From a virus, in IMG/VR virus record IMGVR_UViG_3300029247_000019: a stretch of 32,405 bases of DNA. The stretch is one strand, 5' to 3'. Below, one piece after another: positions 1,368 through 31,013 of the stretch; the first letter of the stretch is position 1; each line of letters begins with the position of its first letter. Made by a program: the position numbers and the translations under genes. The notes below the pieces were generated by a model. It saw only the letters and a list, made by a program, of their open reading frames with translations, searched no databases and was not told where the DNA came from.

Positions 1368-3452
1368 ATGGCAACAAACATAGGCCCCAAAATCGGCGTC
1401 GAAGGCGAGGCCGAGTATAGAAAATCAATAAATCAGATCATCCAGCAGGCCAAGACCCTTGACGCGCAGATGCGCGCGACAGTCTCAAGCTTCAACAGCA
1501 CCACCAGCGCCGAAGAAAAGGCAGCGGCAAAATCTAAAATTCTGTCCGAGCAGATCACCACGCAGAAAGAGCGCATCAGAACCCTGACGGACATGATGCA
1601 GAAATCTGCGGCGAAGTACGGCGAAAATGACGCCCGAACGCTCAAGTGGAGGGAGGCTGTGCTCAATGCCACCACCGCACTCAACGGCATGGAGCAGGAG
1701 CTTGCGGACGTCAACAGCGGCCTCGACGAAACCAGCGACGACTTCACAAAAGCAGGCAAAGGAGCGGCGAGCTTCGGGGATGTTCTGAAAGCAAATGTGC
1801 TCTCAGACGTTATCATGTCAGGTCTGCGGAAAATGGGCGGCTACATAAAGGAAGCCGGAACCGCTTTCATCCAGCTCACGAAAGATGCCGTCAACAGCTA
1901 TTCGGATTATGAGCAGCTTGTCGGCGGCGTTGAGACGCTTTTCGGAGACAGCGCAAAGATAGTCGAGAACTATGCTAACAATGCGTTCAAAACGGCGGGG
2001 CTCTCCGCCAATGAGTACATGGAGACGGTGACAAGCTTCTCGGCGTCGCTGATTCAGGGGCTCGGCGGAGATACTGAACAGGCGGCAAAGCTCGCGAACC
2101 TTGCAATAACCGATATGTCGGACAACGCTAATAAGATGGGCACTGACATCAGCAGCATACAGAACGCCTATCAGGGCTTCGCAAAGCAGAATTATACCAT
2201 GCTGGACAATCTCAAGCTTGGCTATGGCGGCACTGCTGCCGAGATGGCAAGGCTCATAAACGACAGCGGCGTGCTTGGAGACCAGATTGACGTCACGGCG
2301 AAGACAGTCAACGAAGTGTCGTTCGACAAGATGATTGAAGCGATCCACGTTGTACAGACAGAGCTTGGCATAACCGGAACCACATCAAAAGAAGCATCCA
2401 CTACCATACAAGGCAGCGCAAATGCAATGAAATCCGCTTGGCAGAATATGTTGACAGGGTTTGCAGATGAAAAATCGAACCTGTCACAGCTCACTAAAAA
2501 TCTGACAGACAGCATTGTAACATTTGCGGATAACCTCATTCCCAGAATCATGGAAATACTGCCCCGGTTGACCGAAGGCTTTACGCAGCTCATAAATGCC
2601 CTTGTTCCGTATGTCGAGCCTACTCTACAGACGATACTCCCGGCTCTTACCGACGGCATTGAGGCGCTTGTAAACGGGATAGTCGCCGCTCTGCCGGTTT
2701 TGCTTGGCGCGCTGTCCGATGCGATGCCTATGATAATCGACACGGTCCTGACGATACTGCCAGAACTGATGAGCGCCGGGGTCGACTTTATCACTGCGCT
2801 CATTGAGGGCATTGCAGATGCGGCACCGCAGCTGCTTGACGCGATAGTTCGTACCGCAATTGCGATGGTCTCAAAGCTCATCGAAAAGATACCGGATATG
2901 CAAAATGCGGCGGTGAGGCTGATGTCCGGACTGCTGCAAGGGTTGCTCGGCCAGATACCGAACATCATCGGCGGCGTAGTTCAAATAGCGCTCGCAATCC
3001 AGCAGAAATTCAGAGAGCTCCCACAGGCGGCCATTGGCTGGGGGCGTGACCTCATTCAGGGGTTCATCAACGGTATCCTTGATATGTGGAACAACCTCAA
3101 AAACACCGTGGCAAACGTCGCAAATACTATATCAAGTTTTCTCCACTTCTCGCGCCCGGACGAGGGTCCGCTGCGCAATTATGAAAAATGGATGCCCGAT
3201 ATGATGACCGGCCTTGCACGCGGCATCGATGCGAACGCCTACCGCGTAGAGGATGCGCTCATGGCGGCAACTTCCGGTATGCGGATGCAAATCGAGGGCA
3301 CAACTGGAGCGGGAGCGACTCAGACGACTAACTACGGCGGAGTAAACATCGTCGTCAACGGCGCGCCGGGGCAGGACGTTAACGAGCTCGCGGAGACGAT
3401 CATGTACAAGATAGAGAATGCTTACAGCAAGAAAGCGAGCGTGTTTGCGTGA
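1368..3452 (+). CDS. Tape measure protein
   Basis: 694 aa, the largest tail gene, immediately after G/T. N-terminal coiled coil and a hydrophobic, Ala/Leu/Ile-rich central region. Confidence 0.9.
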   Translation: MATNIGPKIGVEGEAEYRKSINQIIQQAKTLDAQMRATVSSFNSTTSAEEKAAAKSKILSEQITTQKERIRTLTDMMQKSAAKYGENDARTLKWREAVLNATTALNGMEQELADVNSGLDETSDDFTKAGKGAASFGDVLKANVLSDVIMSGLRKMGGYIKEAGTAFIQLTKDAVNSYSDYEQLVGGVETLFGDSAKIVENYANNAFKTAGLSANEYMETVTSFSASLIQGLGGDTEQAAKLANLAITDMSDNANKMGTDISSIQNAYQGFAKQNYTMLDNLKLGYGGTAAEMARLINDSGVLGDQIDVTAKTVNEVSFDKMIEAIHVVQTELGITGTTSKEASTTIQGSANAMKSAWQNMLTGFADEKSNLSQLTKNLTDSIVTFADNLIPRIMEILPRLTEGFTQLINALVPYVEPTLQTILPALTDGIEALVNGIVAALPVLLGALSDAMPMIIDTVLTILPELMSAGVDFITALIEGIADAAPQLLDAIVRTAIAMVSKLIEKIPDMQNAAVRLMSGLLQGLLGQIPNIIGGVVQIALAIQQKFRELPQAAIGWGRDLIQGFINGILDMWNNLKNTVANVANTISSFLHFSRPDEGPLRNYEKWMPDMMTGLARGIDANAYRVEDALMAATSGMRMQIEGTTGAGATQTTNYGGVNIVVNGAPGQDVNELAETIMYKIENAYSKKASVFA

Positions 3453-4156
3453 TTTTCTGGAATGGTAAAAGCTCCGATGATCTTCACGTCATTGTAGAGC
3501 ATTACCCCGAGCGGATATATCCGGCACGTAAGCTTGAAAGCATATCCATCCCCGGACGCAACGGCGACATCGTGCGCGCCGAAGACAGCTTCGAGAATTA
3601 TATGCAGTCCTATGACATCTACGTGAGCGGGGAGTTCCACGGCGGGCTCCCTGCGCTCGCGCGCCGGATCGCGGCGTGGCTGATGGCTCCGGAGGGCTAC
3701 TGCAAACTCATCGACAGCTATGATGTCAATTGCTTCCGGTATGCCTACTTTCAAGGGCCGGTAAATTTCGAAAATATATTCAACAACTTTGGCAGAGCCA
3801 CGATAGAGTTCAACTGTCAGCCGTGCCGCTTCCTCATTGACGGTCAGAACCCGGTGCATTTCACCGGCGCCGGCAAGATGATAAACAGCCACGGTTTCGC
3901 AGCACGTCCCCAAATCACCGTGACAGGCTCGGGCAAGGGTACCGTCACTGTCGGCGGCCGGACGGTGACGCTCAGCAAGATCACGAGCGGGATGATATTA
4001 GACTCACTGACGCAAAATGCGTACCTCGGCAGCAGCAACCTTAACGGCGACATCTCAGCTGCTGAGTTTCCAGTGCTGCTGCCCGGAGAATCGGCAATAT
4101 CATTCACCGGCGGCGTGACGGCTCTTGACATTGTACCGAGGTGGTGGACGCTGTGA
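3449..4156 (+). CDS. Distal tail protein (Dit-like)
   Basis: 235 aa with a GTGA start/stop overlap with the tape measure gene. N-terminus IFWNGKSSDDLHVIV is typical of siphovirus tail family proteins. Confidence 0.7.
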   Translation: MIFWNGKSSDDLHVIVEHYPERIYPARKLESISIPGRNGDIVRAEDSFENYMQSYDIYVSGEFHGGLPALARRIAAWLMAPEGYCKLIDSYDVNCFRYAYFQGPVNFENIFNNFGRATIEFNCQPCRFLIDGQNPVHFTGAGKMINSHGFAARPQITVTGSGKGTVTVGGRTVTLSKITSGMILDSLTQNAYLGSSNLNGDISAAEFPVLLPGESAISFTGGVTALDIVPRWWTL

Positions 4157-6021
4157 AGCCAATATTATTTTTATCCACGGCGCAGACATTCACCACGAAC
4201 GGTATAGGAATCCTTAATGATGCTGCCGAGTGCAGGGTCAGAGAACAGCGCAACGGCGAATATGAGTTGACAATGCAGTACCCAATCGATGGGCTGCACT
4301 ACAAGGAGATCATAAATCGCCGCCTGATCTATGCGCAGGTCACACCATACGGCGGGCAAGAACCTTTCCGCATATACAACATAAGCCGCCCCTTGAGCGG
4401 GCTTATAGAGGTTCAGGCACGCCACATTTCATACGATCAAAGCGGCATTCCCGTGACACCGTTCACAGCCGCTAATGCTGCCGATGCAATGAAGCAGCTC
4501 AAGAGCCATGCGGTGGTATCAAATCCGTTCGTCTTCACCACGGATAAGGTCACCACGGCAAACATGACAGTAACTGCCCCGACATCGATGCGCGCCCTGC
4601 TGGGCGGTACTGAGGGCAGCGTACTCGACACGTACCGCGGCGAATTCTTCTTCACACACTTCCTCACGCAGCTGCTTACGTCACGCGGGCAGAACCGCGG
4701 CGTAGTCATACGCTACGGGAAAAACCTTATAGACCTCCGGCAGGAGGAGAACATTTCCAAGATGTACACCGGGGTATATCCGTATTACGTCGACAGCGAG
4801 ACCGGAGAGATAACCGAGCTGCCCGACAAAATTGTAGCTGTCCCCGGCACATTTGACTTTATCAACATCCTCATGCTGGACGTCTCGGGAGACTTCGACA
4901 GCCCGCCAACCGCGCAGCAGCTTACCCTCAGAGCGCAGAGCTATATCAACGACAACAATTTAGGAATACCGACCGTCTCCATCTCACTGAGCTATCAAGA
5001 CATTGCCAGATTGATGGATTCAGCAGCGCCGCCCGAAATGATCAAGCTGTGCGATACCGTCACGGTCATTTATGAGAAGCTCGGCATTGAGACCACAGCC
5101 AAGGTCACGGAGACAGAGTACGATGTGCTGCGCGACAGGTACACTTCAATCAACATAGGTGACATCCGCGCGAACATTGCTGACACCATTTACAGCAACG
5201 CGCAGGCGGTCGAGCAAACCGCTATTGACCTCCGCACCGAGACAGGCAAGGCAATAGCCAACGCGACGCAGCTCATCACGGGCACCAAGGGCGGCAACTT
5301 CGTCTTTCAGTTCAACTCCGACGGAAAGCCAATGGGCTTTTCCATCATGGACACTGACGATATGCTGACCGCAGCCAACGTTTGGCGCTTCAACCTCGGC
5401 GGCCTCGGGTACAGCTCCAAGGGCTATAACGGGCCGTTCGGGACAGCAATCACGCAGGACGGCAAGATCGTCGCCGACTTCATACAGGCGGGTGCACTGT
5501 CCTCGGAGAATGTCACTGTGGGTGGGTTCACGCTCTCCGCGAGCTCACTTCGAAACGGCATGACAGCGCTCGACGATACAAAGCACGACGGCGTGTATGT
5601 CGGGCTTGACGGCATAGCACTCGGCAAAGGTGCATTCAAGGTCGACAAATACGGCAATCTCACTGCCACCAGCGGCAAGTTCACCGGCAGCGTCTACGCT
5701 TCCAGCATCCTGACCGAGGCCGAAGAAACCGGAGCGGGCTACATCGAGGGGAATCAAGTTGGAGACTACACACTCTCGGGCGGCAGTGGCGGCAATCTCG
5801 CATATGACACAGTTGCCCCGGGAAACAACGACTCAACACTCAGCGGTTATGTCTCTCGCGGGACCACCGCATACGGGCAGTGCAACGGCGGGAATATCAG
5901 CAGCAATTATATCAGCGTTAATTCTCTGGCGGCTGGCGCACTCGGCATCGGCGGGCATGACTGCTATTTAGGGACACTATCGATTAACGGGATATCACAC
6001 AATGTTGTTATGTGGGAATAA
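4153..6021 (+). CDS. Tail-associated lysin/tail tip protein (Tal, prophage tail endopeptidase-like)
   Basis: About 622 aa. GTG at 4153 lies 8 nt after GAGGTGG and overlaps the Dit stop (GTGA). The ORF track opens at 4141. Position after Dit supports the call. Confidence 0.7.
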   Translation: MKPILFLSTAQTFTTNGIGILNDAAECRVREQRNGEYELTMQYPIDGLHYKEIINRRLIYAQVTPYGGQEPFRIYNISRPLSGLIEVQARHISYDQSGIPVTPFTAANAADAMKQLKSHAVVSNPFVFTTDKVTTANMTVTAPTSMRALLGGTEGSVLDTYRGEFFFTHFLTQLLTSRGQNRGVVIRYGKNLIDLRQEENISKMYTGVYPYYVDSETGEITELPDKIVAVPGTFDFINILMLDVSGDFDSPPTAQQLTLRAQSYINDNNLGIPTVSISLSYQDIARLMDSAAPPEMIKLCDTVTVIYEKLGIETTAKVTETEYDVLRDRYTSINIGDIRANIADTIYSNAQAVEQTAIDLRTETGKAIANATQLITGTKGGNFVFQFNSDGKPMGFSIMDTDDMLTAANVWRFNLGGLGYSSKGYNGPFGTAITQDGKIVADFIQAGALSSENVTVGGFTLSASSLRNGMTALDDTKHDGVYVGLDGIALGKGAFKVDKYGNLTATSGKFTGSVYASSILTEAEETGAGYIEGNQVGDYTLSGGSGGNLAYDTVAPGNNDSTLSGYVSRGTTAYGQCNGGNISSNYISVNSLAAGALGIGGHDCYLGTLSINGISHNVVMWE

Positions 6022-10673: not shown

Positions 10674-10709
10674 AGAACCGAGCGGGTTATTCCGCTCGGT
10701 TCTTTTTTT
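10674..10709. terminator. Bidirectional rho-independent terminator
   Basis: 12-bp stem AGAACCGAGCGG (10674-10685) / CCGCTCGGTTCT (10692-10703). A-run upstream, T6 downstream. The integrase stop codon (10687-10689) lies in the loop. Confidence 0.75.
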
Positions 10710-12297
10710 GCCTCGGCAGGCTGAAGCAAAGCAGCCCACCATTGATAATAATTCTTGGTACCGGTGGAGCGACACCCGGAATTATTATCAATCCTATTTC
10801 GGGGTCGTCCCAATCTGTATTAAAGTCAAATGTTCCGTCCGGTTTTGCATCCAGCAGCGTCCAGACCCTTATTCTGTCCTTGCCGACCTCTACCCGGACA
10901 ACTACGCTCAGAAGAGCGGGAATATCGTTCGCGGCGACCTTGAGAAGCTCACGGAGCCTGTCCTCGGGAATCGTCGTGCCCTGCGCCTGATTATGCAGCG
11001 TTGTCATTTCGCGGTCGTTCTGCGCCTGCTCGGCCTCCAGCGCGTGAACCGTGTCTATCAGGGACTGACTGTGCATACCGGCAAGCACCGCACTCATGGC
11101 GGCGTCGAGCTGCTTCTTTATCTCGGCCTGCCGGTCAAATAGGGCTTTCATGCGCATAGCCGTCTGCTCCTGAATCTTCCCGCGCTCCTCGCGCAGGATA
11201 CAGATAAGCCCGTCGACATTCTCGGGGTTCCCGAGCATATTTTTGATAGCCTCGGCAATCATGCGCTCGAGATCGTCAACCTTGATAGGCATATTGTCAC
11301 AGGTCTTCTTTCGCTTTTTCTCAGAGCAGGCATAGTAATAATACCCACCCTGCGAGCATGTCACGGACATTGAGGCCTTGCACTCGCCGCAGAACACTTT
11401 TCCCTTGAGCGGGTACTCCCTGACTCTCACAGGCCGCCCCGCCTGCTTGCGTTTGTTTGCCATAAGCTTCTCCTGTACTGTGTCCCAAGTTTCCCGGTCG
11501 ACAATGGCCGGTATCATGTCCTCCATGCGCATCACCGTAGACGCGACGGCATGACTGTTGCGGCTGCCGTCCGGGCGCTTCTGCGTCCGTCCATAGGTCA
11601 GCACACCGATATACTTCTCGTTCTTCAGCAGGTCATGCAGACTGTTAGACCCGAACGTGCCGCCCGACTTCGTGCGCCGTCCCTCGGCGTTGAGCCGCTG
11701 GATGATCTCCCGATAAGACCGCCCGGCGGCATAGTCCCCGAAGATGATGCGCACCGTCTCGGCCTCAGGCTCGCAGACCTCGATCCTGCCGTCGATGACG
11801 ACATACCCGAGCGGGGGCACGCCGCCGGTATACTTCCCCTGCTCGGCCATCCAGCGCATTTTCTCGCAGACCTTTTGCCGGGTCTGCAATACCCACATCT
11901 GATTCATAAGCGCCATGCCGCCCTCTGACATGAACGTCGCAGGGTCGCGCAGATCGCCGCCAATCATCGGCTGAGTCACAGATACCACCCGGACGCCAAG
12001 ACGCTCCAGACGCTCGCGCAGCGTGAACCACGCGGTCATTTTGCGGAACATACGACTTTGATCGTAGATCACGACGGTATCCGCGCCGCCCTCTGAGAGC
12101 AGCCGCATCATGCGGTCAAACTGCGGGCGGGTCTCTTTCATGCCGCTGACAGCTTCATCAGCGAACACATCCAGCACAGGGAGCCGCTGACGCTCGCACC
12201 ACTCTCGGCATTTGCTGACCTGCACTTCGATGCTGTCGGCCTCCTGCCGGTCAGTAGAGAACCGGGCAAGGATATAAGCCCCGTGTGTTAACTTCAT
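10687..12297 (-). CDS. int: Large serine recombinase (phage integrase)
   Basis: 536 aa. N-terminal resolvase domain has catalytic Ser in YILARFSTDRQ. Recombinase domain, Cys-rich zinc ribbon (CGECKA...YYYACSEKKRKKTC) and coiled coil are present. The last ~30 aa look like read-through into the terminator. Confidence 0.95.
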   Translation of the reverse strand: MKLTHGAYILARFSTDRQEADSIEVQVSKCREWCERQRLPVLDVFADEAVSGMKETRPQFDRMMRLLSEGGADTVVIYDQSRMFRKMTAWFTLRERLERLGVRVVSVTQPMIGGDLRDPATFMSEGGMALMNQMWVLQTRQKVCEKMRWMAEQGKYTGGVPPLGYVVIDGRIEVCEPEAETVRIIFGDYAAGRSYREIIQRLNAEGRRTKSGGTFGSNSLHDLLKNEKYIGVLTYGRTQKRPDGSRNSHAVASTVMRMEDMIPAIVDRETWDTVQEKLMANKRKQAGRPVRVREYPLKGKVFCGECKASMSVTCSQGGYYYYACSEKKRKKTCDNMPIKVDDLERMIAEAIKNMLGNPENVDGLICILREERGKIQEQTAMRMKALFDRQAEIKKQLDAAMSAVLAGMHSQSLIDTVHALEAEQAQNDREMTTLHNQAQGTTIPEDRLRELLKVAANDIPALLSVVVRVEVGKDRIRVWTLLDAKPDGTFDFNTDWDDPEIGLIIIPGVAPPVPRIIINGGLLCFSLPRQKKNRAE

Positions 12298-17947: not shown

Positions 17948-18305
17948 AGGAGTAGAGCAGGCCACGCTTTTCTCCTGGGCGCAGATGCGTACTTATTGGC
18001 ACCCGGAACTTAACCTGATGTTCCACATCCCGAACGGCGGGAAGCGGAGCAAGGCCGAGGCCGGGCGCTTCCGCGCCGAGGGCGTGAAGTCCGGCGTGCC
18101 GGACATCTGCCTGCCGGTAGCCCGCGGCGGCTATCACGGGCTGTTCATAGAGCTAAAGCGCCAGCACGGGAACACCACCACGAAGAATCAGAACACATGG
18201 CTTGCCGACCTGCGCGAGCAGGGCTACGCCGCTGCCGTGGCCTACGGCTGGGAGCAGGCGGCGAAGATCATTACAGACTATATGGAGGAAGAGTATGAAG
18301 CTTAA
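17892..18305 (+). CDS. VRR-NUC domain nuclease
   Basis: 137 aa, GGAGGGAA RBS. PD-(D/E)xK-type motif GVPDICLPVARGGYHGLFIELK followed by NQNTWLADLREQGY. Confidence 0.85.
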   Translation: METTMTAASARKKMPCPTEGVEQATLFSWAQMRTYWHPELNLMFHIPNGGKRSKAEAGRFRAEGVKSGVPDICLPVARGGYHGLFIELKRQHGNTTTKNQNTWLADLREQGYAAAVAYGWEQAAKIITDYMEEEYEA

Positions 18306-18888
18306 AGACATAGCCAAGCTGTGCAAAGCGCGCGGGATAATAACGCTCACGCCGGTGGGCGGCACGCAATGGATCGGCGACCTCGGTGCGGCTTTCCCCG
18401 CACTCGGTATGCCGTTCATGGATGAGGAGACCGTGGGCGTCTGCCTTGACTTCGACGAAAAGACCAGAGAGAAAGTCAAGGTCTGCAACATAACCTTTAC
18501 AGACTACGAGCTCGACGAATATGTAGAGGGAGACAAAGAGCTTACGAGCGTGCTGCTCAGGTTCCTTTACTACGGCAGGACAGTAGACGCATGGAGCACG
18601 GCGGACGGCGATGTAGTATTCCTCGACGCTGCGTACACAAAGCCACTGCTTGCAGATGATGATAGGACGCAACTGTTCGTCCGGCATAAAATCGGGCGGA
18701 GCTTCGGGTACGTGATCGGCAAATCCGGGATGTTTGTCACGGCAATCATAGAGCCTATGAGATTCCGGAACGACGATTCCGGGCGCGGTCTGTTCCTTTC
18801 ACACGCGCTGGCGCAGGTGCTGAACGAGGTGGACAAGCAGGTGAACACCGAGCCCGACACAGACCCGGAGACGGGCGAGATCGTATGA
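18295..18888 (+). CDS. Hypothetical protein
   Basis: ATG at 18295 after GGAGGAAGAG. 197 aa. The track ORF opens further upstream, inside the VRR-NUC gene. Confidence 0.65.
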
Positions 18889-19886
18889 GCGACCGGCTCA
18901 CACACCTGTCCTTATTCACCGGCATCGGCGGGCTTGACCTCGCTGCCGAGTGGGCAGGATTCACCACCGTAGGCCAGTGCGAATGGGCGGACTATCAGAC
19001 CAAGGTTCTTGAAAAGCACTGGCCGGATGTGCCGCGGTGGCGAGACATCAGAACCCTGACAAAGGAGAGCTTTTATGAGCGAACAGGATTACGAACAGTT
19101 GACGTTATTTCTGGCGGATTCCCATGTCAGCCATTCAGTGTGGCTGGAAAGCAAAAAGGCAAAGGGGACGACCGTTACCTCTGGCCTGAGATGCTCCGAG
19201 TTATCCGAGAGCTGCGCCCGCATTGCGTCGTCGGTGAGAACGTACCTGGAATCATCAAGATTGCCGCCGGGCAGGTGGTCAAGGATTTGGAGCGCGCTGG
19301 CTATAACGTCGTCGTGTTCAATTATGAAGCTGCGGCTGTCGGAGCTTGGCACAGAAGAAGCCGGGTCTTCTTTGTGGGCTACGCCGAACACGATGGACAG
19401 CATGGACTGCCGCAGCTACGAGGCAATGAAGAGACAGGCAACGAACGGCGGCAGGAAGAACCGGCGCCGCCCAAGCAATTTGAGGGAGCAGGTGAACCCG
19501 CTGATGTGTCAGGCATACGAGGATGCGAGCGCAGAAGCAAAGCTATGGCCGACTCCGACGGCAAGGGACAACAAGGGAGCGAACAGCCTGGAACATCTGA
19601 CGCAGCCGAAGACACCGGGGAATATCCACCACGTGGGTCAGCTGGCGAATGCTGTGAGGTTATACACTACACCATGCGCGGCGGACAGTCAGGGCAGCAC
19701 GGGCGGTGGGAATCACAGGAGCTTGCGGACGGACGTTGCTGGGCAGCTGAACCCGGCGTGGGTAGAGTGGTTAATGGGCTTCCCAATCGGGTGGACAGAC
19801 TTAAATGCTTAGGCAACGCTGTTGTTCCGCAGCAGGCGTACCCGATATTCAAAGCGCTAAAGGAGGAACTGACACGATGGGAATAA
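18885..19886 (+). CDS. DNA (cytosine-5) methyltransferase, frame A. Conserved motifs sit at both ends; the central ~120 aa is low-complexity.
   Basis: Motif [41 protein letters not shown], and the C-terminal [28 protein letters not shown]. Residues ~167-285 are G/E/Q/R-rich and look out of frame. Confidence 0.8.
19075..19812 (+). CDS. Nested +1-frame ORF inside the methyltransferase gene, carrying TRD/motif-IX-like sequence (frame B). Status is unresolved: overlapping gene, recoded segment, or indel artefact.
   Basis: AAGGAG (19062-19067) lies 7 nt before the ATG. 245 aa with [27 protein letters not shown] and [18 protein letters not shown]-rich third positions. Confidence 0.5.
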
Positions 19887-20299
19887 AGAACTACACATCC
19901 AACGTGGATGCGTCTGTATCTCTCGGGGAGATACAGGCTGCTCTTGCGAGAGCGGGAGCACTTCAGATCATGGTTGACTACGATAACAGCGAGCCGCAGG
20001 CGGTATCATTCGGAATGATGGGGCCGTGCGGCAAGATAGGTTTCAAGCTCCCTGCCCCGGTCGAGGGCACGATGCAAGCCTTCACCCGGCAGAAAATCAA
20101 AGCGGACAAGGAGCAGGCCACGCGCACGGCGTGGCGCAACGTAAGGGACTGGGTACTTGCTCAGGTGGCGCTCATGGAGAGTTGTACTGTTGATGCTGCG
20201 CAGTGTTTTCTCCCCTACATGGTAGACCGCAGCGGCACGACATTGTACGAAGCCTATTCCAGCGGGCGGCTTATGCTCGGAAATGGAGAAGAGACATGA
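19877..20299 (+). CDS. Conserved hypothetical phage protein
   Basis: ATG at 19877 after AAGGAGG. 140 aa, [28 protein letters not shown]... Confidence 0.7.
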
Positions 20300-25439: not shown

Positions 25440-25799
25440 GTGACACGGAAAAAATGGCGGGAAGCCATATTGAACGATATGCGGCAGCTCGACATAGATT
25501 CAACCGGCTTTGACATCACGATAAACCTTGCTGCCGATACGCTCTATGAGCTCGATCGGGCACGCACCGCATACAAGAAAAGCGGATCTATCGCCGTGAT
25601 AGAGCACACGAATAAGAACGGGAGCACCAACAAAGCAAAGAACCCGGAATTGACAATCGTCCTTGACCTCAAATCCAAAGCCCGTGAATTTCTGGCCGAG
25701 CTTGGCCTGACCCCCGCCGCACAAAAGCGGTTGACAAACGATGCCCCCAAAAAGGAGAAGCTCAGTCCGCTGGCCAAAGCGTTGAGCGAGATAAAATGA
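25440..25799 (+). CDS. terS: Terminase small subunit (P27 family)
   Basis: 119 aa, GTG start after AAAGGGGG. C-terminal [18 protein letters not shown] is typical of the P27 family. Confidence 0.8.
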
Positions 25800-27547
25800 G
25801 AGCAATCACCGGGCGGAATTGGGATGTGGTCCTTGAGTATGCCGAGAGCATACGCAGCGGCCGGAAATGCGCCTGCCCCGAGCTCAAGCAAGCGGTTGAG
25901 CGTTTCTTCCGAGACCTCGACGACTCAAGATATTACCTTGACCCTAAAGGCCCTGAGTTCTGCATTCAGATCATTGAAAAGACGATAGTCCACAAGCAGG
26001 GCGAGAAGCTTGACGGCACACCGCTTAGAGGAACACCGTTCCTACTGGAACCGTTCCACAAGTTCATCATCTACAACGTCGTCGGGTTCAAACTGACAGG
26101 GACGGATGTTGCAAGGTATCACGAAGCGCTGATCTTCATCCCGCGAAAGAATATCAAGACCACCTTTGCGGCAAGCCTGGCATTCGCTCTATCGCTATAT
26201 TACCGCAAGAGCGGGAGCAAGTGTTACATCGTCGGTGCGGCGCTGAAACAGAGCTTGGAAAGCTTTGAATTTCTGGAATACAACATCAAGCACATGGGCG
26301 AGGACGCCGCGAGCGGCGGGGCGGTAAAAATTATCAACAACAACAATGAGCATTCCTTAAGGGCGGAGCTGCCCGGCGGGGACGGCTCATTTTTCATTCA
26401 ATCCCTCGCGGCAAACCCTGACGCGCAGGACTCACTGAACTGCAACCTTGCAATCTGTGATGAGCTGCACGCCTATAAAAAGCCGAAGCAGTACAACCTC
26501 TTCAAGGAAGCCATGAAGGCCTATTCGAACAAGCTTCTGATCGGCATCAGTACGGCAGGGGATAACGAGCAGATGTTCCTTGGACAAAGGCTGAAATACT
26601 GCCGCAAGGTGCTTGAGGGGATAATCAGCGATGAGCAGCTGTTCATCTTCATGTGCTGCGCTCCGAAAGACCCGGAGACGGGGGAGGTGGATTTCACAAA
26701 CCCGATAGTCCATGAGATGGCAAATCCGGCCTATGGCATCAGCATACGCCCTGAGGAGATTCTCAACGACAGCATTCAGGCGCAGAACGACTCACAGCAG
26801 CGCAAAGATTTCTTTGCAAAAAGCCTGAACGTCTACACAAATTCCATCAAGGCGTATTTCAACATTGATGAGTTCCGCCGGTCCGATAAAAAGTATGACT
26901 GGACGCTCGACCAGCTACGGCGGCTGCCGATCAAATGGTACGGCGGCGCTGACCTCTCAAAGCTGCATGACCTCACTGCCGCCGCCCTTGTCGGCAACTA
27001 CAAGGGCGTGGATATCATTATCACGCACGCCTTTTTCCCGGTGGCTGTCGCCCACAGAAAGGCGGACGAAGATAACATTCCTCTGTTCGGATGGCAGGAT
27101 GACGGATGGTTGACCATGTGCAACGGTCCGACGGTCAACCATGCAGACATAATCAACTGGTTCGTCGAGATGCGCAAGAGCGGGTTCAAAATCGCCGCTG
27201 TCGGTCACGACCGCAAGTTCTGCAGGGAGTACTTTATCGGAATGAAGAAAGCCGGCTTCCGCGTCTTTGATCAACCGCAATATTTCTACAAGAAGTCCGA
27301 GGGCTTCAGATACATCGAGCACAGCGTCAAGAATGGCACACTGTACTATATGCACTCAGAAGCTTATGAATACTGCGTCGAGAATGTGTCAGCCATTGAA
27401 AAGACTGACGACATGATCGCCTATGAAAAAATCATGCCCGAGCTGAGAATTGACCTTTTCGACGCATCGGTATTCGCAGAGATCAGATATCTCGAAAGCC
27501 TCGAAAAGTCCGCGGACGCAAGTAACTGGTGGGGAGATAAACAATGA
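25796..27547 (+). CDS. terL: Terminase large subunit
   Basis: 583 aa. Walker-A-like [11 protein letters not shown], Walker-B-like [11 protein letters not shown]-terminal nuclease region. ATGA coupling to terS. Confidence 0.95.
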
Positions 27548-28755
27548 GCAAAAAAAGAACACGAACAAAACAGGCACCGCGAGCCGAGCCCATGCAGGCA
27601 CGAAGCGCTGGCAGCGCGGCGTTTTTCTGCGACGCATCGAAATTCGACGATCTTGCTTGCCGGGGCTACATTAAGCTGAGCGACAGCCCGGAAATAAGCG
27701 CAGCTGTTGACACCATCGCACAGCTTGTAGGCTCACAGACCATTCACCTGATGCAGAACACGGAGCGGGGCGATATACGCGTTACCAACGCATTGAGCCG
27801 CAAGGTTGACATCAACCCCAATAAGAACATGACGCGCTCCAACTTCATCCGCTGGATAGTCAGGACGATGTATTACAGCGGCAATGCCGTCGCATGGCCG
27901 CGCACCAGAGCGGGCTATCTCGACGACCTGATACCGATACCGCCGGCATTCACCTCTTTCGTTCCCTACGGCGATTTTGACTATCGCGTGGTAATTGCCG
28001 GGCGAGAGTATGAGCCTGATAATGTGCTGCACTTCGCGCTGAATCCCGGCGAATATTACCCGTGGCTTGGCGTCGGTTATCAGATCCAGCTCAGTGATGT
28101 GGCAAACAACCTCAAGCAGGCGGCAACGACCGAAAAGGGCTTCATGTCCTCAAAGTGGAAGCCCTCAATCATTGTCAAGGTCGACGGCCTTGTTGATGAA
28201 TTTTCATCGCCCGAGGGACGTGAGAAACTGCTCAACTCATACGCAGCCAGCGGCGAGGCCGGTGAACCGTGGCTGATACCGGCGAATCAGTTTGAGGTGG
28301 AGCAGGTAAAGCCGCTTACGCTGTCTGACCTGGCTCTCGCAGACTTCGTGAAACTGGACAAGCGCACAGTTGCGTCGATATTGGGCGTCCCGCCGTTCGT
28401 CCTCGGCGAGGGCGAGTTTAAGCGCGATGCCTGGAACGCCTTTATAAACAGCCGGATCATGCCGCTGTCTCAGAATATCCAGCAGGTACTGACTAAAGGG
28501 CTGCTTTACAGCCCGGATATGTATTTCCGTTTCAATCCTCGCAGCCTGTATAACTACGACCTCAAAGATCTTGCGGCCGTGGCTGACGATCAGTATATCC
28601 GCGGAATAATGACCGGCAACGAGGTCAGGGACTGGCTCGGTTTGACGCCGCTTGAGGGGCTGGATATTCTCACGATCCTTGAGAACTTCATCCCTCAGAG
28701 CATGATTGCAAATCAAAAAAAGCTTATTCAGGGAGGTGAAACAGATGGAGAATAA
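27544..28755 (+). CDS. Portal protein (HK97 family)
   Basis: 403 aa, immediately after terL (ATGA overlap). Size and position are typical. Confidence 0.9.
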
Positions 28756-29341
28756 ACCAACATTCTGCACACGCTTCATGCAGCCCTCAGCTGCTGAGTT
28801 CTCCGCGCGCGCGGAGGGAGAGGAACTGTACATAGAGGGCTATTTCGCGGTATTCGGAGCCAAATACTGGCTCTGGGAAGAGGCATACGAAACGGTCGAC
28901 CGCGGCGCGTTCACGGATCAGACAAAGGAAGATGTCCGCGCCCTGTGCAATCACGACACGACGCTTGTCCTCGGCAGAGTACCAGCGGGAACGCTTACAC
29001 TCCGCGAAGATGAGATCGGGCTTTGGGGCAGCATCCGGATAAACCGAGCTGATCAGGATGCTATGAACCTCTACGAGCGGGTCAAGCGCAGAGATGTGAA
29101 TCAGTGCTCTTTCGGGTTCGATATCCTTGACCAGGAGATCGAGCACACCGAGGGACAGCCGTCAGTGTTCCGCATCAAGCGCGTGCGCCTCTATGAGGTG
29201 TCCGTAGTAACATTTCCGGCCTATGAAGATACAAGTGTCGAGGCCAGAAAGGCCGAGCTTGCGACCGTTATCAAACGCAGAGTTGAAGAGAAGCGCAGGC
29301 TCGCACTCGAAAGACTGAAAGGAGTCAATTATGGCAATTAA
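28745..29341 (+). CDS. Prohead maturation protease (HK97 family, S78)
   Basis: ATG at 28745 after GGGAGGTGA. IEGYFAVFG...DRGAF...LCNHD...LREDEIGLWG...QCSFGF are family hallmarks. Confidence 0.9.
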   Translation: MENKPTFCTRFMQPSAAEFSARAEGEELYIEGYFAVFGAKYWLWEEAYETVDRGAFTDQTKEDVRALCNHDTTLVLGRVPAGTLTLREDEIGLWGSIRINRADQDAMNLYERVKRRDVNQCSFGFDILDQEIEHTEGQPSVFRIKRVRLYEVSVVTFPAYEDTSVEARKAELATVIKRRVEEKRRLALERLKGVNYGN

Positions 29342-31013
29342 AGCAATTATGCTGCGCAAGCGCATCGAACTGAAAAAGGCCGAGCTTGCCCAGCACAGGG
29401 AAAGAGCAAAAGAGTTTGAAACTCGCAAATCCGACATCACCGAGGCAATCGGTGAGGCCACCACTGAGGAGGAGATCGACGCTCTCAATGAGGGCATGGA
29501 TCAGCTTGAAACCGAGTGGAAAGAGCACGAGGAGACCGAAAATCGCCTCAGCGGCGAAATCGCGGCGCTTGAGCAGCAGCTCACCGAAGAGGAGCAGCGC
29601 GGCACGCCGCCCATCAACAACCCCGAGAGTGGGGCAAATACCGAAAGGAGCAATCATATGACCACCACCATCAACATCCGTTCTCTGCCCTTTGGCCAGA
29701 GAGTAATGGACGCGCTGCCTCGCCAGGAGCGCGACGCAATCATCGGGCAGGAGGATAGTAAAAACTTCCTCGCACAGCTGCGCAGCCTCAAGGGCGAGAA
29801 GCGCGGCGTCAGCGGCGGTGAGCTGACCATTCCTGTCGTGTTCCTCGACCTCATCGCCGAGAATATGTACAGATACAGCAAGCTGCTCAACCGCGTCCGT
29901 GTGCGCTCTGTTACGGGCACCACCCGTCAGACCATCGCGGGCACGGTCCCGGAAGCTGTCTGGACGGAGATGTGCGCAGCTATCAATGAGCTGACTCTGG
30001 TATTCAACCAGACCACGCTTGATGGCTACAAGGTAGCGGGCTTCGTACCTGTCTGCAACAGCCTGCTGGAGGACAACGACGTCAACCTCGCAAGCTGGAT
30101 CGTTGAGATGCTTTCCGAAAGCATCGGCCTTGCAATCGACAAGGCGATCCTCTACGGCAAGGGCGCAGCCAACAGTATGCCTCTCGGCATTGTAACCCGC
30201 CTTGCACAGCAGAGCAAGCCCGCCGGGTACCCGGCTGCCGCCCCTGCATGGGTCGACCTCCACACCAGCAACATCCTCAAGATCGATGCCAGCAAGACCG
30301 GCGCTGAGTTCTGGGCAGCCCTCCAGATCGCGGCAGGCGCCACGTTCACCCGTTACAGCCGCGGTAATCAGTTCTGGGCGATGAACAGCAAGACCTACGC
30401 GCTTCTCAAGTCCAAGGCAATCACTTTCACCGCATCCGGTGATGTTGTAGCCAATGTTTACGGCATCCTGCCCATCGTGACCGGCGATATCGACATTCTG
30501 GAATTCATCCCGGACGGCGATATCATCGGCGGTTACGGCGACCTGTACCTCTACGCCGACCGCGCGAGAATGACGATTGAGGAGAGCCGCGAGGTGCAGT
30601 TCCTCCAGGACAACACCGTGTTCAAGGGCAAGGCCCGTGCGGACGGTACGCCGGTCGTTCCGGGCGCGTTCGTTGCGATTAATATCAACGGCAGCGAAGT
30701 TACCACCGCAATGACGTTCGCAGCTGACACGGCGAACGACGCCGACCTTGATTCCCTCAGCGTCGGCACCGGCTCACTCAGCCCGGCCTTTGATGCGGCC
30801 ACTCAGAGCTACACGCTCTCTACCACGGCGGCATCCCTCGCAGTCAACGCAGCGGCGGCACAGATCGACGCAAAGGTAGCGATTAGCTACGGCGGAAAGA
30901 ATGTAGCCAACGGCGGCAACATTACCCCGACTGCCGGGGCGAGCACCCTCACCGTGACCGTGACCAATGGCAACGCGACCAAGGTGTACACCGTCGCGAT
31001 CACCAAGACCTGA
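29331..31013 (+). CDS. Major capsid protein (HK97 fold) with an N-terminal delta/scaffold domain and a C-terminal cadherin-like beta-sandwich domain
   Basis: 560 aa. ~105-aa coiled-coil N-terminus, HK97-like core. C-terminal ~90 aa reads LDSLSVGTGSLSPAFDAATQSYTLS...LTVTVTNGNATKVYTVAITKT. Confidence 0.9.
   Translation: MAIKAIMLRKRIELKKAELAQHRERAKEFETRKSDITEAIGEATTEEEIDALNEGMDQLETEWKEHEETENRLSGEIAALEQQLTEEEQRGTPPINNPESGANTERSNHMTTTINIRSLPFGQRVMDALPRQERDAIIGQEDSKNFLAQLRSLKGEKRGVSGGELTIPVVFLDLIAENMYRYSKLLNRVRVRSVTGTTRQTIAGTVPEAVWTEMCAAINELTLVFNQTTLDGYKVAGFVPVCNSLLEDNDVNLASWIVEMLSESIGLAIDKAILYGKGAANSMPLGIVTRLAQQSKPAGYPAAAPAWVDLHTSNILKIDASKTGAEFWAALQIAAGATFTRYSRGNQFWAMNSKTYALLKSKAITFTASGDVVANVYGILPIVTGDIDILEFIPDGDIIGGYGDLYLYADRARMTIEESREVQFLQDNTVFKGKARADGTPVVPGAFVAININGSEVTTAMTFAADTANDADLDSLSVGTGSLSPAFDAATQSYTLSTTAASLAVNAAAAQIDAKVAISYGGKNVANGGNITPTAGASTLTVTVTNGNATKVYTVAITKT

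What the first reader, a model, noticed from the sequence alone, without database searches (positions are those of the whole stretch)
18885..19886. C5-methyltransferase whose canonical motif order is split across two overlapping frames, with a nested 245-aa +1 ORF that has its own SD-ATG
Frame A (18885-19886):
- It carries motifs I (FTGIGG), IV ([11 protein letters not shown] at 19122-19127), VI (ENVPG) and VIII ([10 protein letters not shown], 19350-19379).
- It also carries a motif-X tail, [28 protein letters not shown] (GNAV at 19812-19823).
- Residues ~167-285 (19383-19739) are a G/E/Q/R-rich low-complexity stretch with no target-recognition character.

Frame B (+1, 19075-19812):
- AAGGAG (19062-19067) lies 7 nt before its ATG.
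- It encodes three L[WY]xTPxxxD repeats: LWATPNTMD from 19372, LWPTPTARD from 19543, and LYTTPCAAD.
- It also encodes [16 protein letters not shown] (19750-19797), which looks like a canonical motif IX (E..LMGFP).

How the frames combine:
- Reading A up to 19371, B from 19372 to 19805, and A again from 19806 gives the textbook order I-IV-VI-VIII-TRD-IX-X.
- Both switch points sit on short homopolymers (TTT 19371-19373, AAA 19803-19805).
- Deleting one T and adding one A would yield a single 333-aa ORF (...RRSRVF-LWATPNT ... [19 protein letters not shown]...).

Evidence against a simple error:
- Both ORFs stay open for more than 100 codons outside their own segment.
- By hand count, the first 32 codons after 19071/19075 have 10/32 G/C third positions in frame A and 20/32 in frame B, even though A encodes the catalytic PCQ motif there.
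- In 19383-19739, frame B has mostly G/C third positions and frame A has G-heavy first positions, which is an out-of-frame signature for A.
- The B N-terminus ADSHVSHS is the +1 shadow of GGFPCQPFS, and [15 protein letters not shown] is the +1 shadow of [15 protein letters not shown]. Both of these last two versions look like conserved motifs I recognise from phage methyltransferases.

Possible readings:
1. An overprinted gene pair.
2. +1/-1 recoding.
3. Two compensating indels, either an assembly error or a pseudogene.
Basis: partly seen in the sequence, partly recalled or inferred. Interest (0 to 1): 0.85.

Follow-up and report, generated by a model that had tools for sequence, protein, structure and literature searches.

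The report
Split phage cytosine methyltransferase, nested genes
A phage DNA cytosine methyltransferase gene carries a second, conserved gene in its +1 reading frame that seems to supply the enzyme's missing DNA-recognition part, an arrangement shown for one E. coli enzyme in 1995 and found here across many phages and prophages, mostly unannotated.

Summary
Frame A (18885-19886, 333 aa) is a C5-methyltransferase with motifs I, IV, VI, VIII and X. Its 117 residues between VIII and X are unconserved.

Frame B (+1, 19075-19812, 245 aa) has its own AAGGAG-ATG. It belongs to a large protein family (phrog_1008; 8913 cluster representatives).

Both frames stay open in 67/80 viral loci, down to 31% B identity, and in 66/80 genome loci from many phyla. 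The third frame is always broken.

Substitution patterns show three zones:
- A is the main constraint in 19075-19371, with B adding some.
- B alone is constrained in about 19383-19739.
- Both are constrained in 19740-19812.

B's SD-ATG is conserved.

In some relatives A stops after motif VIII and the B frame runs on into motif X. That ties B physically to the enzyme.

Best explanation: a two-polypeptide methyltransferase of the M.EcoHK31I type, with the small subunit nested in the large subunit's gene. Recoding and compensating indels are not supported.

This is a new member of a known kind. Its breadth and poor annotation may be new. Both structure predictions failed, and B's motif IX assignment is not statistically supported.

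The parts
18885..19886 (+). Frame A: large (alpha-like) subunit ORF of the C5-methyltransferase, 333 aa. Its ATG overlaps the stop of the upstream ORF (ATGA).
   Evidence: PF00145 E=4e-38 over residues 7-172; phrog_363 E=4e-80 over residues 2-327. TIGR00675 dcm. Aligns with M.HhaI residues 12-168.
18915..18932 (+). Motif I, FTGIGG (AdoMet binding), frame A.
   Evidence: translation; conserved block, top-residue fraction 0.91.
19113..19139 (+). Motif [11 protein letters not shown] (catalytic Cys), frame A.
   Evidence: top-residue fraction 0.92-0.97 across 65 loci.
19236..19250 (+). Motif VI, ENVPG, frame A.
19350..19379 (+). Motif [14 protein letters not shown], frame A.
19386..19736 (+). Frame A spacer, residues 168-284: G/E/Q/R-rich, not conserved, indel-rich. 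It appears to be only a stop-free tether from motif VIII to motif X.
   Evidence: top-residue fraction 0.2-0.4, gaps up to 0.47. (median P(open) 0.023 across 65 loci; 0.006 for the window). (A GC3 0.53). (A position 1 is the most variable).
19749..19832 (+). Frame A pre-X segment and motif [29 protein letters not shown]. The first two thirds share their DNA with B's motif IX.
   Evidence: top-residue fraction 0.85-0.91. phrog_32758 and the phrog_363 C-terminus. Synonymous diversity in A falls to 0.25 here.
19062..19067 (+). Shine-Dalgarno AAGGAG for frame B, 7 nt upstream of its ATG. In frame A it encodes K-E.
   Evidence: A GGAG-type SD plus ATG sits at the same aligned place in most of the 65 loci. 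A's synonymous diversity dips to 0.40 at codons 61-75.
19075..19812 (+). Frame B (+1): small (beta-like) subunit ORF, 245 aa, nested entirely inside A. Its TAG stop is made from A's TTA-GGC (the L-G of CLGNAV).
   Evidence: phrog_1008 E=2e-24 over residues 3-243; 2335 homologues; 8913 cluster representatives.
19075..19371 (+). B N-terminal domain (residues 1-99), overprinted on A's motifs IV-VIII. Inferred to dock onto the large subunit.
   Evidence: Always open. A's synonymous diversity is 0.51-0.57 here against 0.72 outside. A's position-3 differences are 0.38 against 0.48. For the M.EcoHK31I small subunit, N-terminal deletions abolish association (PMC2836561).
19372..19749 (+). B variable region with three (L)(W/Y)xTP...D modules (19372-19398, 19543-19569, 19660-19686). 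Inferred to be the target-recognition region.
   Evidence: B is the only constrained frame here: B synonymous diversity 0.74, about baseline; B GC3 0.75; conserved islands at WPTP and TPCA.D. Module number varies from 1 to about 9 among relatives.
19750..19797 (+). B motif IX-like block, [16 protein letters not shown].
   Evidence: The most conserved part of B (top-residue fraction 0.83-0.94). B-frame periodicity dominates here. In L077 and L051 it lies in the same frame about 20 aa upstream of pre-X and X. Its similarity to M.HhaI motif IX is not significant.

Best explanation
The locus encodes one orphan phage C5-cytosine DNA methyltransferase made of two polypeptides translated from overlapping frames of the same DNA.

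The large subunit is A, translated from 18885. It forms the catalytic, AdoMet-binding domain (motifs I, IV, VI, VIII and X). The segment between VIII and X would normally be the small DNA-recognition domain. Here it is a non-conserved, probably disordered tether whose only requirement is to contain no stop codon.

The small subunit is B, which starts independently at its own SD-ATG (19062-19067 and 19075). Three roles are inferred for its parts.
- Its N-terminal ~100 residues, overprinted on A's motifs IV-VIII, dock it onto A.
- Its repeated (L/M)(W/F/Y)xTP modules recognise the target sequence.
- Its C-terminal [16 protein letters not shown] block acts as motif IX.

A and B together would rebuild a complete enzyme that methylates the phage genome, most likely to protect it from host restriction.

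Shown here:
- both ORFs exist and are conserved;
- the selection patterns are frame-specific;
- B's start is conserved;
- B is physically fused to motif X in relatives.

Inferred, not shown:
- translation of both frames in this phage;
- assembly of A with B;
- the roles of B's domains;
- the biological purpose.
For: Architecture
- establish the two ORFs and their two different family matches.

Conservation of both frames
- Both are open in 67/80 IMG/VR loci (B identity 83% to 31%) and 66/80 genome loci from Oscillospiraceae to Treponema, Synergistaceae, Dehalococcoidia, Planctomycetota and Patescibacteria.
- The third frame is always broken.
- Median per-locus P(open) is 0.044 and 0.023.

Frame-specific selection
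- A's synonymous diversity is 0.72 outside the overlap, 0.51-0.57 over B's N-terminal domain and 0.25 over B's motif IX.
- B's synonymous diversity is 0.74 in the middle, where A is unconserved.

Independent initiation of B
- An SD plus ATG is conserved at the same aligned position.

B belongs to the enzyme
- In L077, L051 and L160 the A frame stops after motif VIII, and the B frame continues through IX into pre-X and X.
- The L077 product hits both phrog_1008 (E=1e-50) and the C-terminus of phrog_363 (E=1e-9).

Same nesting in cultured phages, plasmids and prophages
- It is annotated in Paenibacillus larvae phages, for example as 'g50 internal gene'.
- Frame arithmetic (+1) confirms it in Salmonella phage 66FD, Lactobacillus phage Lc-Nu, Rhodobacter phage RcPeripeteia, an Enterobacter plasmid, a Bacillus plasmid and E. 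coli prophages.

Experimental precedent
- M.EcoHK31I needs an alpha and a beta chain.
- Beta is encoded wholly inside the alpha gene in another frame and carries motif IX.
- Removing beta's start codons abolishes methylation in vivo.
- Beta's N-terminus is needed for association with alpha (PMC2836561; PMC3404938).
Against: - There are no expression, proteomic or methylation data for this phage.
- B has no Pfam, NCBIfam or PDB sequence match.
- Its similarity to the M.HhaI recognition-domain core and motif IX is collinear but not significant (empirical p about 0.23).
- Both AlphaFold runs failed (pLDDT about 43), so there is no structural support for docking or for the small-domain assignment.
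- The literature places the predicted recognition domain of M.EcoHK31I in alpha. Here the corresponding part of A is unconserved.
- Part of the conservation of B residues 1-100 is a shadow of A's strongly conserved motifs. The extra constraint there is moderate (0.72 falling to about 0.54).
Confidence: 0.8

Rival explanations
1. Programmed recoding. Ribosomes starting at 18885 shift +1 near 19371 and -1 near 19803, producing a single canonical I-IV-VI-VIII-TRD-IX-X polypeptide.
For: The A-B-A chimera gives the textbook motif order. Pfam then aligns it end to end (residues 7-326 to profile 3-323), although the score is slightly lower than for A alone (128.9 against 132.0 bits).
Against: - TTT at 19371 is present in only 12/65 loci; AAA at 19803 is simply the conserved Lys codon.
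- The longest homopolymer in the gene is A5.
- There is no A-frame stop or rare-codon pause at the junction.
- The segment after motif VIII is indel-rich and unconserved.
- B has a conserved SD-ATG 300 nt upstream of the proposed shift, and its N-terminal 100 codons stay open everywhere. Neither feature would be needed under recoding.
- A's 117-codon spacer also stays open, which recoding does not need either.
- Two efficient shifts in one gene have no precedent that I know of.
Confidence: 0.03
2. An artefact or pseudogene: two compensating indels, from assembly error or decay, in an originally single-frame methyltransferase gene.
For: - Single-indel variants do exist in metagenomes (P0095, P0077, P0391-P0413, L034, L049, L052, L054, L074).
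- PGAP calls one E. coli homologue a pair of pseudogene fragments.
Against: - The same two-frame arrangement occurs in more than 130 independent loci, in isolate phage genomes and in complete bacterial genomes.
- Both frames show purifying selection in their own segments.
- No natural fully single-frame version appeared among the 120 best hits to the chimera.
Confidence: 0.01
3. B is a genuine overprinted protein, but its function is unrelated to methylation. It could be a regulator or an anti-defence factor that merely shares DNA with the methyltransferase gene, and A alone would be the enzyme.
For: - B has no significant similarity to solved C5-methyltransferase small domains.
- Viral overprinted genes often encode accessory functions (general knowledge; review PMC8227390 appeared in the listing but was not read).
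Against: - In L077, L051, L160 and P0317 the B-type protein is fused in frame to motif X, and A stops after motif VIII. There, A alone cannot be a complete enzyme.
- A's region between VIII and X is unconserved and low-complexity, so A has no plausible DNA-recognition domain.
- B is found with this methyltransferase clade in every locus examined.
- The M.EcoHK31I precedent argues the same way.
Confidence: 0.1
4. The conservation of frame B is only a shadow of frame A, or of base composition, and B is not translated.
For: In 19075-19371 A is clearly the dominant constraint: B's synonymous diversity there is only 0.15-0.23, and A keeps normal third-position periodicity.
Against: - In 19383-19739 A is unconserved, while B has conserved motif islands, baseline synonymous diversity (0.74) and host-like GC3 (0.75).
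- In 19740-19812 the B-frame periodicity dominates.
- B is kept free of stops against expectation.
- Its SD-ATG is conserved.
Confidence: 0.02

Closest known systems
M.EcoHK31I (E. coli, YGGCCR): a heterodimeric C5-methyltransferase whose beta chain is encoded inside the alpha gene in another frame (Lee, Kam & Shaw 1995, as described in PMC2836561 and PMC3404938)
   Same: [quoted passage not shown]
- The small chain is encoded entirely within the large chain's gene in an alternative frame and carries motif IX.
- The small chain has its own initiation.
- The sizes are comparable: 333 and 245 aa here, against roughly 309 and 176 aa for M.EcoHK31I (the latter from my own recollection).
   Different: - M.EcoHK31I belongs to a restriction-modification system. 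The window gene is an orphan in a temperate phage's early region.
- The literature assigns the predicted recognition domain of M.EcoHK31I to alpha. Here A's VIII-X segment is unconserved, and the conserved, modular variable region lies in B.
- Sequence homology to M.EcoHK31I could not be tested because the paper and sequence are not held.
M.AquI (CYCGRG): a two-subunit C5-methyltransferase. Alpha has motifs I-VIII plus part of the variable region; beta has the rest of the variable region plus IX-X (PMC3404938)
   Same: The enzyme is split within the variable region into two polypeptides that must assemble. Relatives of the window gene (L077, L051, L160, P0317) have this division, with an overlap of about 340 nt.
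   Different: In the window, motif X stays on the large chain, reached through a 117-residue stop-free spacer, and the small gene is fully nested rather than partly overlapping.
Paenibacillus larvae Fernvirus phages (Tadhana gp54/gp55; Redbud gp50/gp51, annotated 'g50 internal gene')
   Same: A homologous gene pair with the same +1 nesting. B is 33% identical over its full length and A about 37%. Both ORFs are deposited as CDS in many of these genomes.
   Different: - The internal ORF is annotated only as 'hypothetical protein' or a second 'DNA-cytosine methyltransferase'.
- In the 48-genome comparison paper, text searches for 'methyltransferase' and 'overlap' returned no passage about it (PMC6070908).
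- In these phages B stops 164 nt before A's stop, so motif IX and pre-X do not share the same DNA.
Monomeric C5-methyltransferases (M.HhaI, M.HaeIII; Pfam PF00145)
   Same: [quoted passage not shown] The overall motif set I-X is present once the two frames are combined.
   Different: The small domain and motif IX are not in the same polypeptide. B's variable region and IX block show no significant sequence similarity to those of M.HhaI.

Membership tests
C5-cytosine DNA methyltransferase (Pfam PF00145 / TIGR00675) | Motifs I (FxGxGG), IV (PCQ, catalytic Cys), VI (ENV) and VIII (RxR) in one chain | tested here: met
   Frame A: PF00145 E=4e-38 over residues 7-172. TIGR00675 scores 118.5 bits against a cut-off of 100.65. 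It aligns with M.HhaI residues 12-168.
C5-cytosine DNA methyltransferase (Pfam PF00145 / TIGR00675) | Motif X (GNAV/GNSV) at the C-terminus of the same chain | tested here: met
   LGNAVVPQ lies at A residues 309-316. The phrog_363 profile is matched to position 314/327, and phrog_32758 matches residues 272-327.
C5-cytosine DNA methyltransferase (Pfam PF00145 / TIGR00675) | A conserved variable region (TRD) and motif IX between VIII and X in the same chain | tested here: not met
   A residues 168-284 are unconserved, indel-rich and low-complexity. The Pfam match stops at residue 172. The IX-like block is in frame B.
M.EcoHK31I-type nested heterodimeric C5-methyltransferase | The small-subunit gene lies entirely within the large-subunit gene in an alternative reading frame | tested here: met
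   B (19075-19812) lies inside A (18885-19886) in the +1 frame. The arrangement is conserved in more than 130 loci.
M.EcoHK31I-type nested heterodimeric C5-methyltransferase | The large subunit has motifs I-VIII and X but lacks IX; the small subunit carries IX | tested here: inconclusive
   The motif distribution fits by pattern (xLMGFPxGW in B). In L077 and L051 this block lies just upstream of X in one chain. Similarity of the block to M.HhaI motif IX is not significant (p about 0.23).
M.EcoHK31I-type nested heterodimeric C5-methyltransferase | Both polypeptides are required for methylation and associate physically | not testable with these tools
   This needs expression and assay. Both structure predictions gave pLDDT of about 43.
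M.EcoHK31I-type nested heterodimeric C5-methyltransferase | Sequence homology to M.EcoHK31I alpha and beta | not tested
   The 1995 paper is not held and the 2009 paper has no supplement held, so no sequence was available.
M.AquI-type split C5-methyltransferase | Alpha ends within the variable region; beta carries the distal variable region plus motifs IX and X | tested here: not met
   In the window, motif X is in frame A and B stops at 19812, before GNAV is read in its frame. The feature is met in relatives L077, L051 and L160.
Programmed ribosomal frameshifting or transcriptional slippage gene | A conserved slippery site or homopolymer (and pause or stimulator) at the frame junction | tested here: not met
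   TTT at 19371 occurs in 12/65 loci. The longest run in the gene is A5, elsewhere. The junction region is indel-rich.

The most novel reading that the evidence does not exclude
The nested two-polypeptide design may be the normal, ancient architecture of a very large clade of phage-borne orphan C5-methyltransferases, rather than a curiosity of one E. coli enzyme.

Four specific claims would follow.
- The small, overprinted subunit, not the large one, carries a modular target-recognition region of 1 to about 9 (W/F)xTP modules.
- The large subunit's VIII-X segment is a sequence-free tether selected only to lack stops.
- Motif IX and the pre-X helix are co-encoded on the same 60 nt in two frames.
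- Because both frames are open, single indels swap the IX and X tails between the two chains instead of destroying the enzyme. That would make the gene tolerant of frameshifts, or switchable by them.

Annotation pipelines miss the small subunit or call the gene a pseudogene.
Probability: 0.35. Interest if true: 0.7.

Novelty: new member of a known kind. Interest (0 to 1): 0.6.

Why it matters
Annotation
- Many phage, prophage and plasmid 'DNA cytosine methyltransferase' genes hide a second, conserved coding sequence. RefSeq usually does not annotate it.
- I confirmed the +1 nesting by frame arithmetic in a handful of records and saw tblastn matches in 209 phage records for the proteobacterial type alone.
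- One E. coli prophage copy is even labelled as two pseudogene fragments.

Function and engineering
- Predicting specificity, engineering these enzymes or expressing them from the annotated ORF alone would probably fail if the nested subunit is required, as it is for M.EcoHK31I.

Evolution
- This is a large, deeply conserved example of a long same-strand overlap in bacterial viruses.
- The two products look like parts of one enzyme, and different stretches of the same DNA are constrained by one frame, the other, or both.
- That makes it a good natural system for studying how overlapping genes evolve.

Biotechnology
- Naturally split C5-methyltransferases have been used as scaffolds for targeted methylation (PMC2836561). 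This family offers many more of them.

Tried and rejected
- AlphaFold2 of B alone, with a 40-sequence alignment: mean pLDDT 43.5, unusable, so no fold search was run.
- AlphaFold2 of a natural A-to-B fusion (P0412) with a mixed alignment: mean pLDDT 42.3. Even the catalytic domain was poor, probably because the alignment mixed frames.
- Sequence and profile searches of B, of a B alignment and of the L077 small subunit against PDB, Pfam and NCBIfam: nothing.
- A B C-terminal profile against M.HhaI residues 221-286, with 2000 shuffles: p about 0.23. The collinear alignment that phmmer printed is not significant.
- Obtaining M.EcoHK31I: the 1995 paper is not held and the 2009 paper has no supplements held.
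- The idea that the overlap of motif IX with pre-X arose by duplication or by microhomology deletion: no DNA similarity between the IX-coding and pre-X-coding segments in L077, L051 or L086. Dropped.
- Recoding: rejected because the proposed slip sites are not conserved and are only 3 nt long.
- My first impression that B's TAG stop always falls in A's L-G codons was wrong. Codon 309 is CTC in 44/65 loci, and B then runs a few codons further.
Full report
**Observation**

The window holds two same-strand ORFs at the stated coordinates.
- A runs from 18885 to 19886 (333 aa).
- B runs from 19075 to 19812 (245 aa) in the +1 frame of A.
- The hand-counted third-position G/C values (10/32 in A, 20/32 in B) are also correct.

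The family matches differ between the two frames.
- Pfam recognises A only over residues 7-172, that is motifs I-VIII.
- PHROGs matches A end to end to phrog_363 (E=4e-80).
- PHROGs matches B end to end to a different family, phrog_1008 (E=2e-24).
- B has no Pfam, NCBIfam or PDB sequence match.

**Context**

The window is a temperate siphovirus-like phage or prophage. It encodes:
- a tape-measure protein and tail proteins;
- a large serine recombinase (10687-12297, minus strand);
- a large terminase subunit (25796-27547);
- a major head protein (29331-31013).

The methyltransferase lies among small early genes.
- Its ATG overlaps the stop of the upstream ORF.
- The next gene starts at 19877.
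- The two flanking ORFs match only PHROG families of unknown function, so no restriction endonuclease partner was identified and it looks like an orphan enzyme.
- The closest genomic relatives are Oscillospiraceae and Eubacteriales genomes assembled from gut metagenomes (81% B identity).

**Is it an error?**

No.
- B has 2335 homologues in the word-indexed protein search.
- It has 8913 cluster representatives at E<=1e-3 in the exhaustive search.
- In 80 IMG/VR loci, with B identity from 83% down to 31%, 67 have an A ORF of 276-423 aa that encloses a complete B ORF in the +1 frame.
- The third frame is always broken into stretches of about 30-130 codons.
- In 80 loci from bacterial genomes, 66 show the same nesting. 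They include Clostridia, Paenibacillus, Treponema, Synergistaceae, Dehalococcoidia, Planctomycetota, Bacteroidota, Opitutae, Acidobacteria and Patescibacteria.

The arrangement also occurs in cultured phages, plasmids and prophages.
- About 48 Paenibacillus larvae phages carry the pair. Some annotators deposited the inner ORF, for example Redbud gp51, 'g50 internal gene'.
- B-like coding is exactly +1 inside the annotated methyltransferase CDS in Salmonella phage 66FD, Lactobacillus phage Lc-Nu and Rhodobacter phage RcPeripeteia.
- The same holds for an Enterobacter plasmid, a Bacillus tropicus plasmid and two E. coli prophages.
- A proteobacterial version of B hits 209 phage records.

Permuting synonymous codons gives median per-locus probabilities of 0.044 and 0.023 for the two long stop-free stretches.

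**Which frame is constrained where**

These results come from alignments of 65 non-identical nested loci.

| Region | Frame A | Frame B |
|---|---|---|
| 18885-19074 (A only) | conserved; synonymous diversity 0.72 of expectation | not coding |
| 19075-19371 (A motifs IV-VIII, B residues 1-99) | conserved; synonymous diversity 0.51-0.57 | moderately conserved; synonymous diversity 0.15-0.23 |
| about 19383-19739 (A spacer, B variable region) | unconserved, indel-rich | conserved islands at WPTP and L..TPCA.D; synonymous diversity 0.74 |
| 19740-19812 (A pre-X, B motif IX) | conserved; synonymous diversity 0.25 | very conserved ([19 protein letters not shown]); synonymous diversity 0.51 |
| after B's stop | conserved; synonymous diversity 0.71 | not coding |

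Supporting detail:
- In the spacer region, GC3 is 0.75 in B and 0.53 in A.
- Position-specific differences show normal third-position periodicity for A outside the overlap (0.48).
- That periodicity is damped under B's N-terminal domain (0.38).
- In the IX/pre-X block the B-frame periodicity dominates: B positions 1, 2 and 3 differ at 0.108, 0.091 and 0.280.

So the DNA falls into three zones: A is the main constraint with some from B, then B alone, then both.

**Translation of B**

- A GGAG-type Shine-Dalgarno sequence 6-10 nt upstream of an ATG is present at the same aligned position in most of the 65 loci, even the distant ones.
- In most loci a B-frame stop lies five codons upstream, so this ATG is the first possible start.
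- A's synonymous diversity dips to 0.40 across this start region.

**B is part of the enzyme**

- In L077, L051 and L160, and in protein P0317, the A frame ends shortly after motif VIII.
- There the B frame reads on through [16 protein letters not shown], then about 20 residues, then [28 protein letters not shown].
- The L077 product matches both phrog_1008 (E=1e-50) and the C-terminal part of phrog_363 (E=1e-9).
- So the B family is physically continuous with motif X in some relatives. That arrangement matches the published description of M.AquI (PMC3404938).
- These loci also show that [13 protein letters not shown] and RVxxGxPNRVDRL are two separate, sequential motifs. In the window they are written on the same 60 nt in two frames.

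**Mechanism**

The published description of M.EcoHK31I fits the window (PMC2836561; PMC3404938).
- It has two chains that must associate.
- The small chain is encoded entirely within the large chain's gene in another frame.
- The large chain holds motifs I-VIII and X; the small chain holds IX.
- Silent removal of the small chain's start codons abolishes methylation in vivo.
- N-terminal deletions of the small chain weaken association.

I therefore propose that A and B are the large and small subunits of one enzyme.
- B's overprinted N-terminal ~100 residues would be the docking element.
- Its repeated (W/F/Y)xTP modules would be the recognition region.
- Its C-terminal block would be motif IX.
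- A's 117-residue spacer would be a tether that only has to stay open so that motif X is made.

These roles are inferred, not shown.

**What does not support the model, or was not obtained**

- Both AlphaFold runs failed.
- B's similarity to the M.HhaI recognition-domain core and motif IX is collinear but not significant.
- The M.EcoHK31I sequence could not be compared.
- The literature places that enzyme's predicted recognition domain in the large chain, unlike the picture here.

**Rival readings**

- Recoding into one chain is unlikely.
  - The proposed slip sites are 3 nt long and the first is not conserved.
  - B's conserved start and A's open spacer would both be unnecessary.
  - No natural full single-frame version turned up among the 120 best hits to the chimera.
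- Assembly error or pseudogene is refuted by the comparative data.
- A B protein unrelated to methylation is hard to reconcile with the loci where it is fused to motif X and A is truncated.

**Variants seen in passing**

- Because both frames are open, single indels produce tail swaps rather than truncations.
- A-to-B fusions occur with at least ten different junctions. One form is present on 24 or more contigs.
- The reciprocal B-to-A fusions also occur (P0077, L034, L052).
- Whether these are active, inactive or switchable is unknown.

**Novelty**

- The principle has been known since 1995 for one enzyme, and the inner ORF is deposited in some Paenibacillus phage records.
- The only seven papers in the held library that mention EcoHK31I do not appear to describe a family (judged from titles and abstracts, with the relevant passages read in two of them).
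- In the 48-genome Paenibacillus phage paper, text searches for 'methyltransferase' and 'overlap' returned no passage about the inner gene.
- PGAP annotates only A, or in one E. coli prophage two pseudogene pieces.
- I therefore rate this a new member of a known kind.
- The family-wide breadth and the zone-by-zone dual coding may be unreported, as far as I could search.

Noticed in passing
Related proteins and loci: P0095, P0391-P0413, P0077; L034, L049, L052, L054, L074; L087-L092: Single indels or deletions in the doubly open region swap tails between the two proteins. They give A(N-terminus)-to-B(C-terminus) fusions, with at least ten junctions, and the reciprocal B-to-A fusions. The P0399 form occurs on 24 or more contigs from different samples. 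In L087 the motif X tail sits in a third frame yet is perfectly conserved.
   Followed up: partly
L077 2805-4134; L051 2754-4152; L160; protein P0317: These are M.AquI-like relatives. The A frame stops just after motif VIII. The B frame carries the N-terminal domain, the variable modules, motif IX, about 20 aa, then pre-X and motif X in one chain.
   Followed up: yes
L173 (E. coli NZ_CP041110, lambda-like prophage) 1486-2655; L174 (P2-like prophage) 1405-2211: Both E. coli prophage homologues have the nested +1 ORF. PGAP annotates the L173 gene as two 'incomplete' pseudogene fragments, although frame A is open for about 390 codons.
   Followed up: partly
L085 (1 module), window (3 modules), P0246 (about 9 modules), L066 443-2106: The number of (L/M)(W/F/Y)xTP...D modules in the small subunit varies from 1 to about 9. 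In L066 both frames stay open for about 1600 nt (533 and 548 aa). This might reflect tandem recognition modules, as in multispecific phage methyltransferases; that is speculation.
   Followed up: no
window 19749-19812: About 60 nt encode two conserved motifs in two frames: B's [18 protein letters not shown] and A's [20 protein letters not shown]'s TAG stop is built from A's TTA-GGC (the L-G of CLGNAV). In L086 and the Paenibacillus phages the two motifs are not superimposed. No DNA similarity between the two coding segments was found in loci where they are separate.
   Followed up: yes
window 10687-12297 (-), 1368-6021, 25796-31013: The window looks like most of a temperate siphovirus-like phage: tape-measure and tail genes, a large serine recombinase on the minus strand, a large terminase subunit and a major head protein. 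The two ORFs flanking the methyltransferase match only PHROG families of unknown function.
   Followed up: partly
window 18202-18888 and 19877-20299: The flanking ORFs match only PHROG families of unknown function (phrog_24518 and phrog_17260). The upstream ORF's stop overlaps A's start (ATGA), and the downstream ORF starts before A's stop, so the three genes are packed tightly enough for translational coupling.
   Followed up: no
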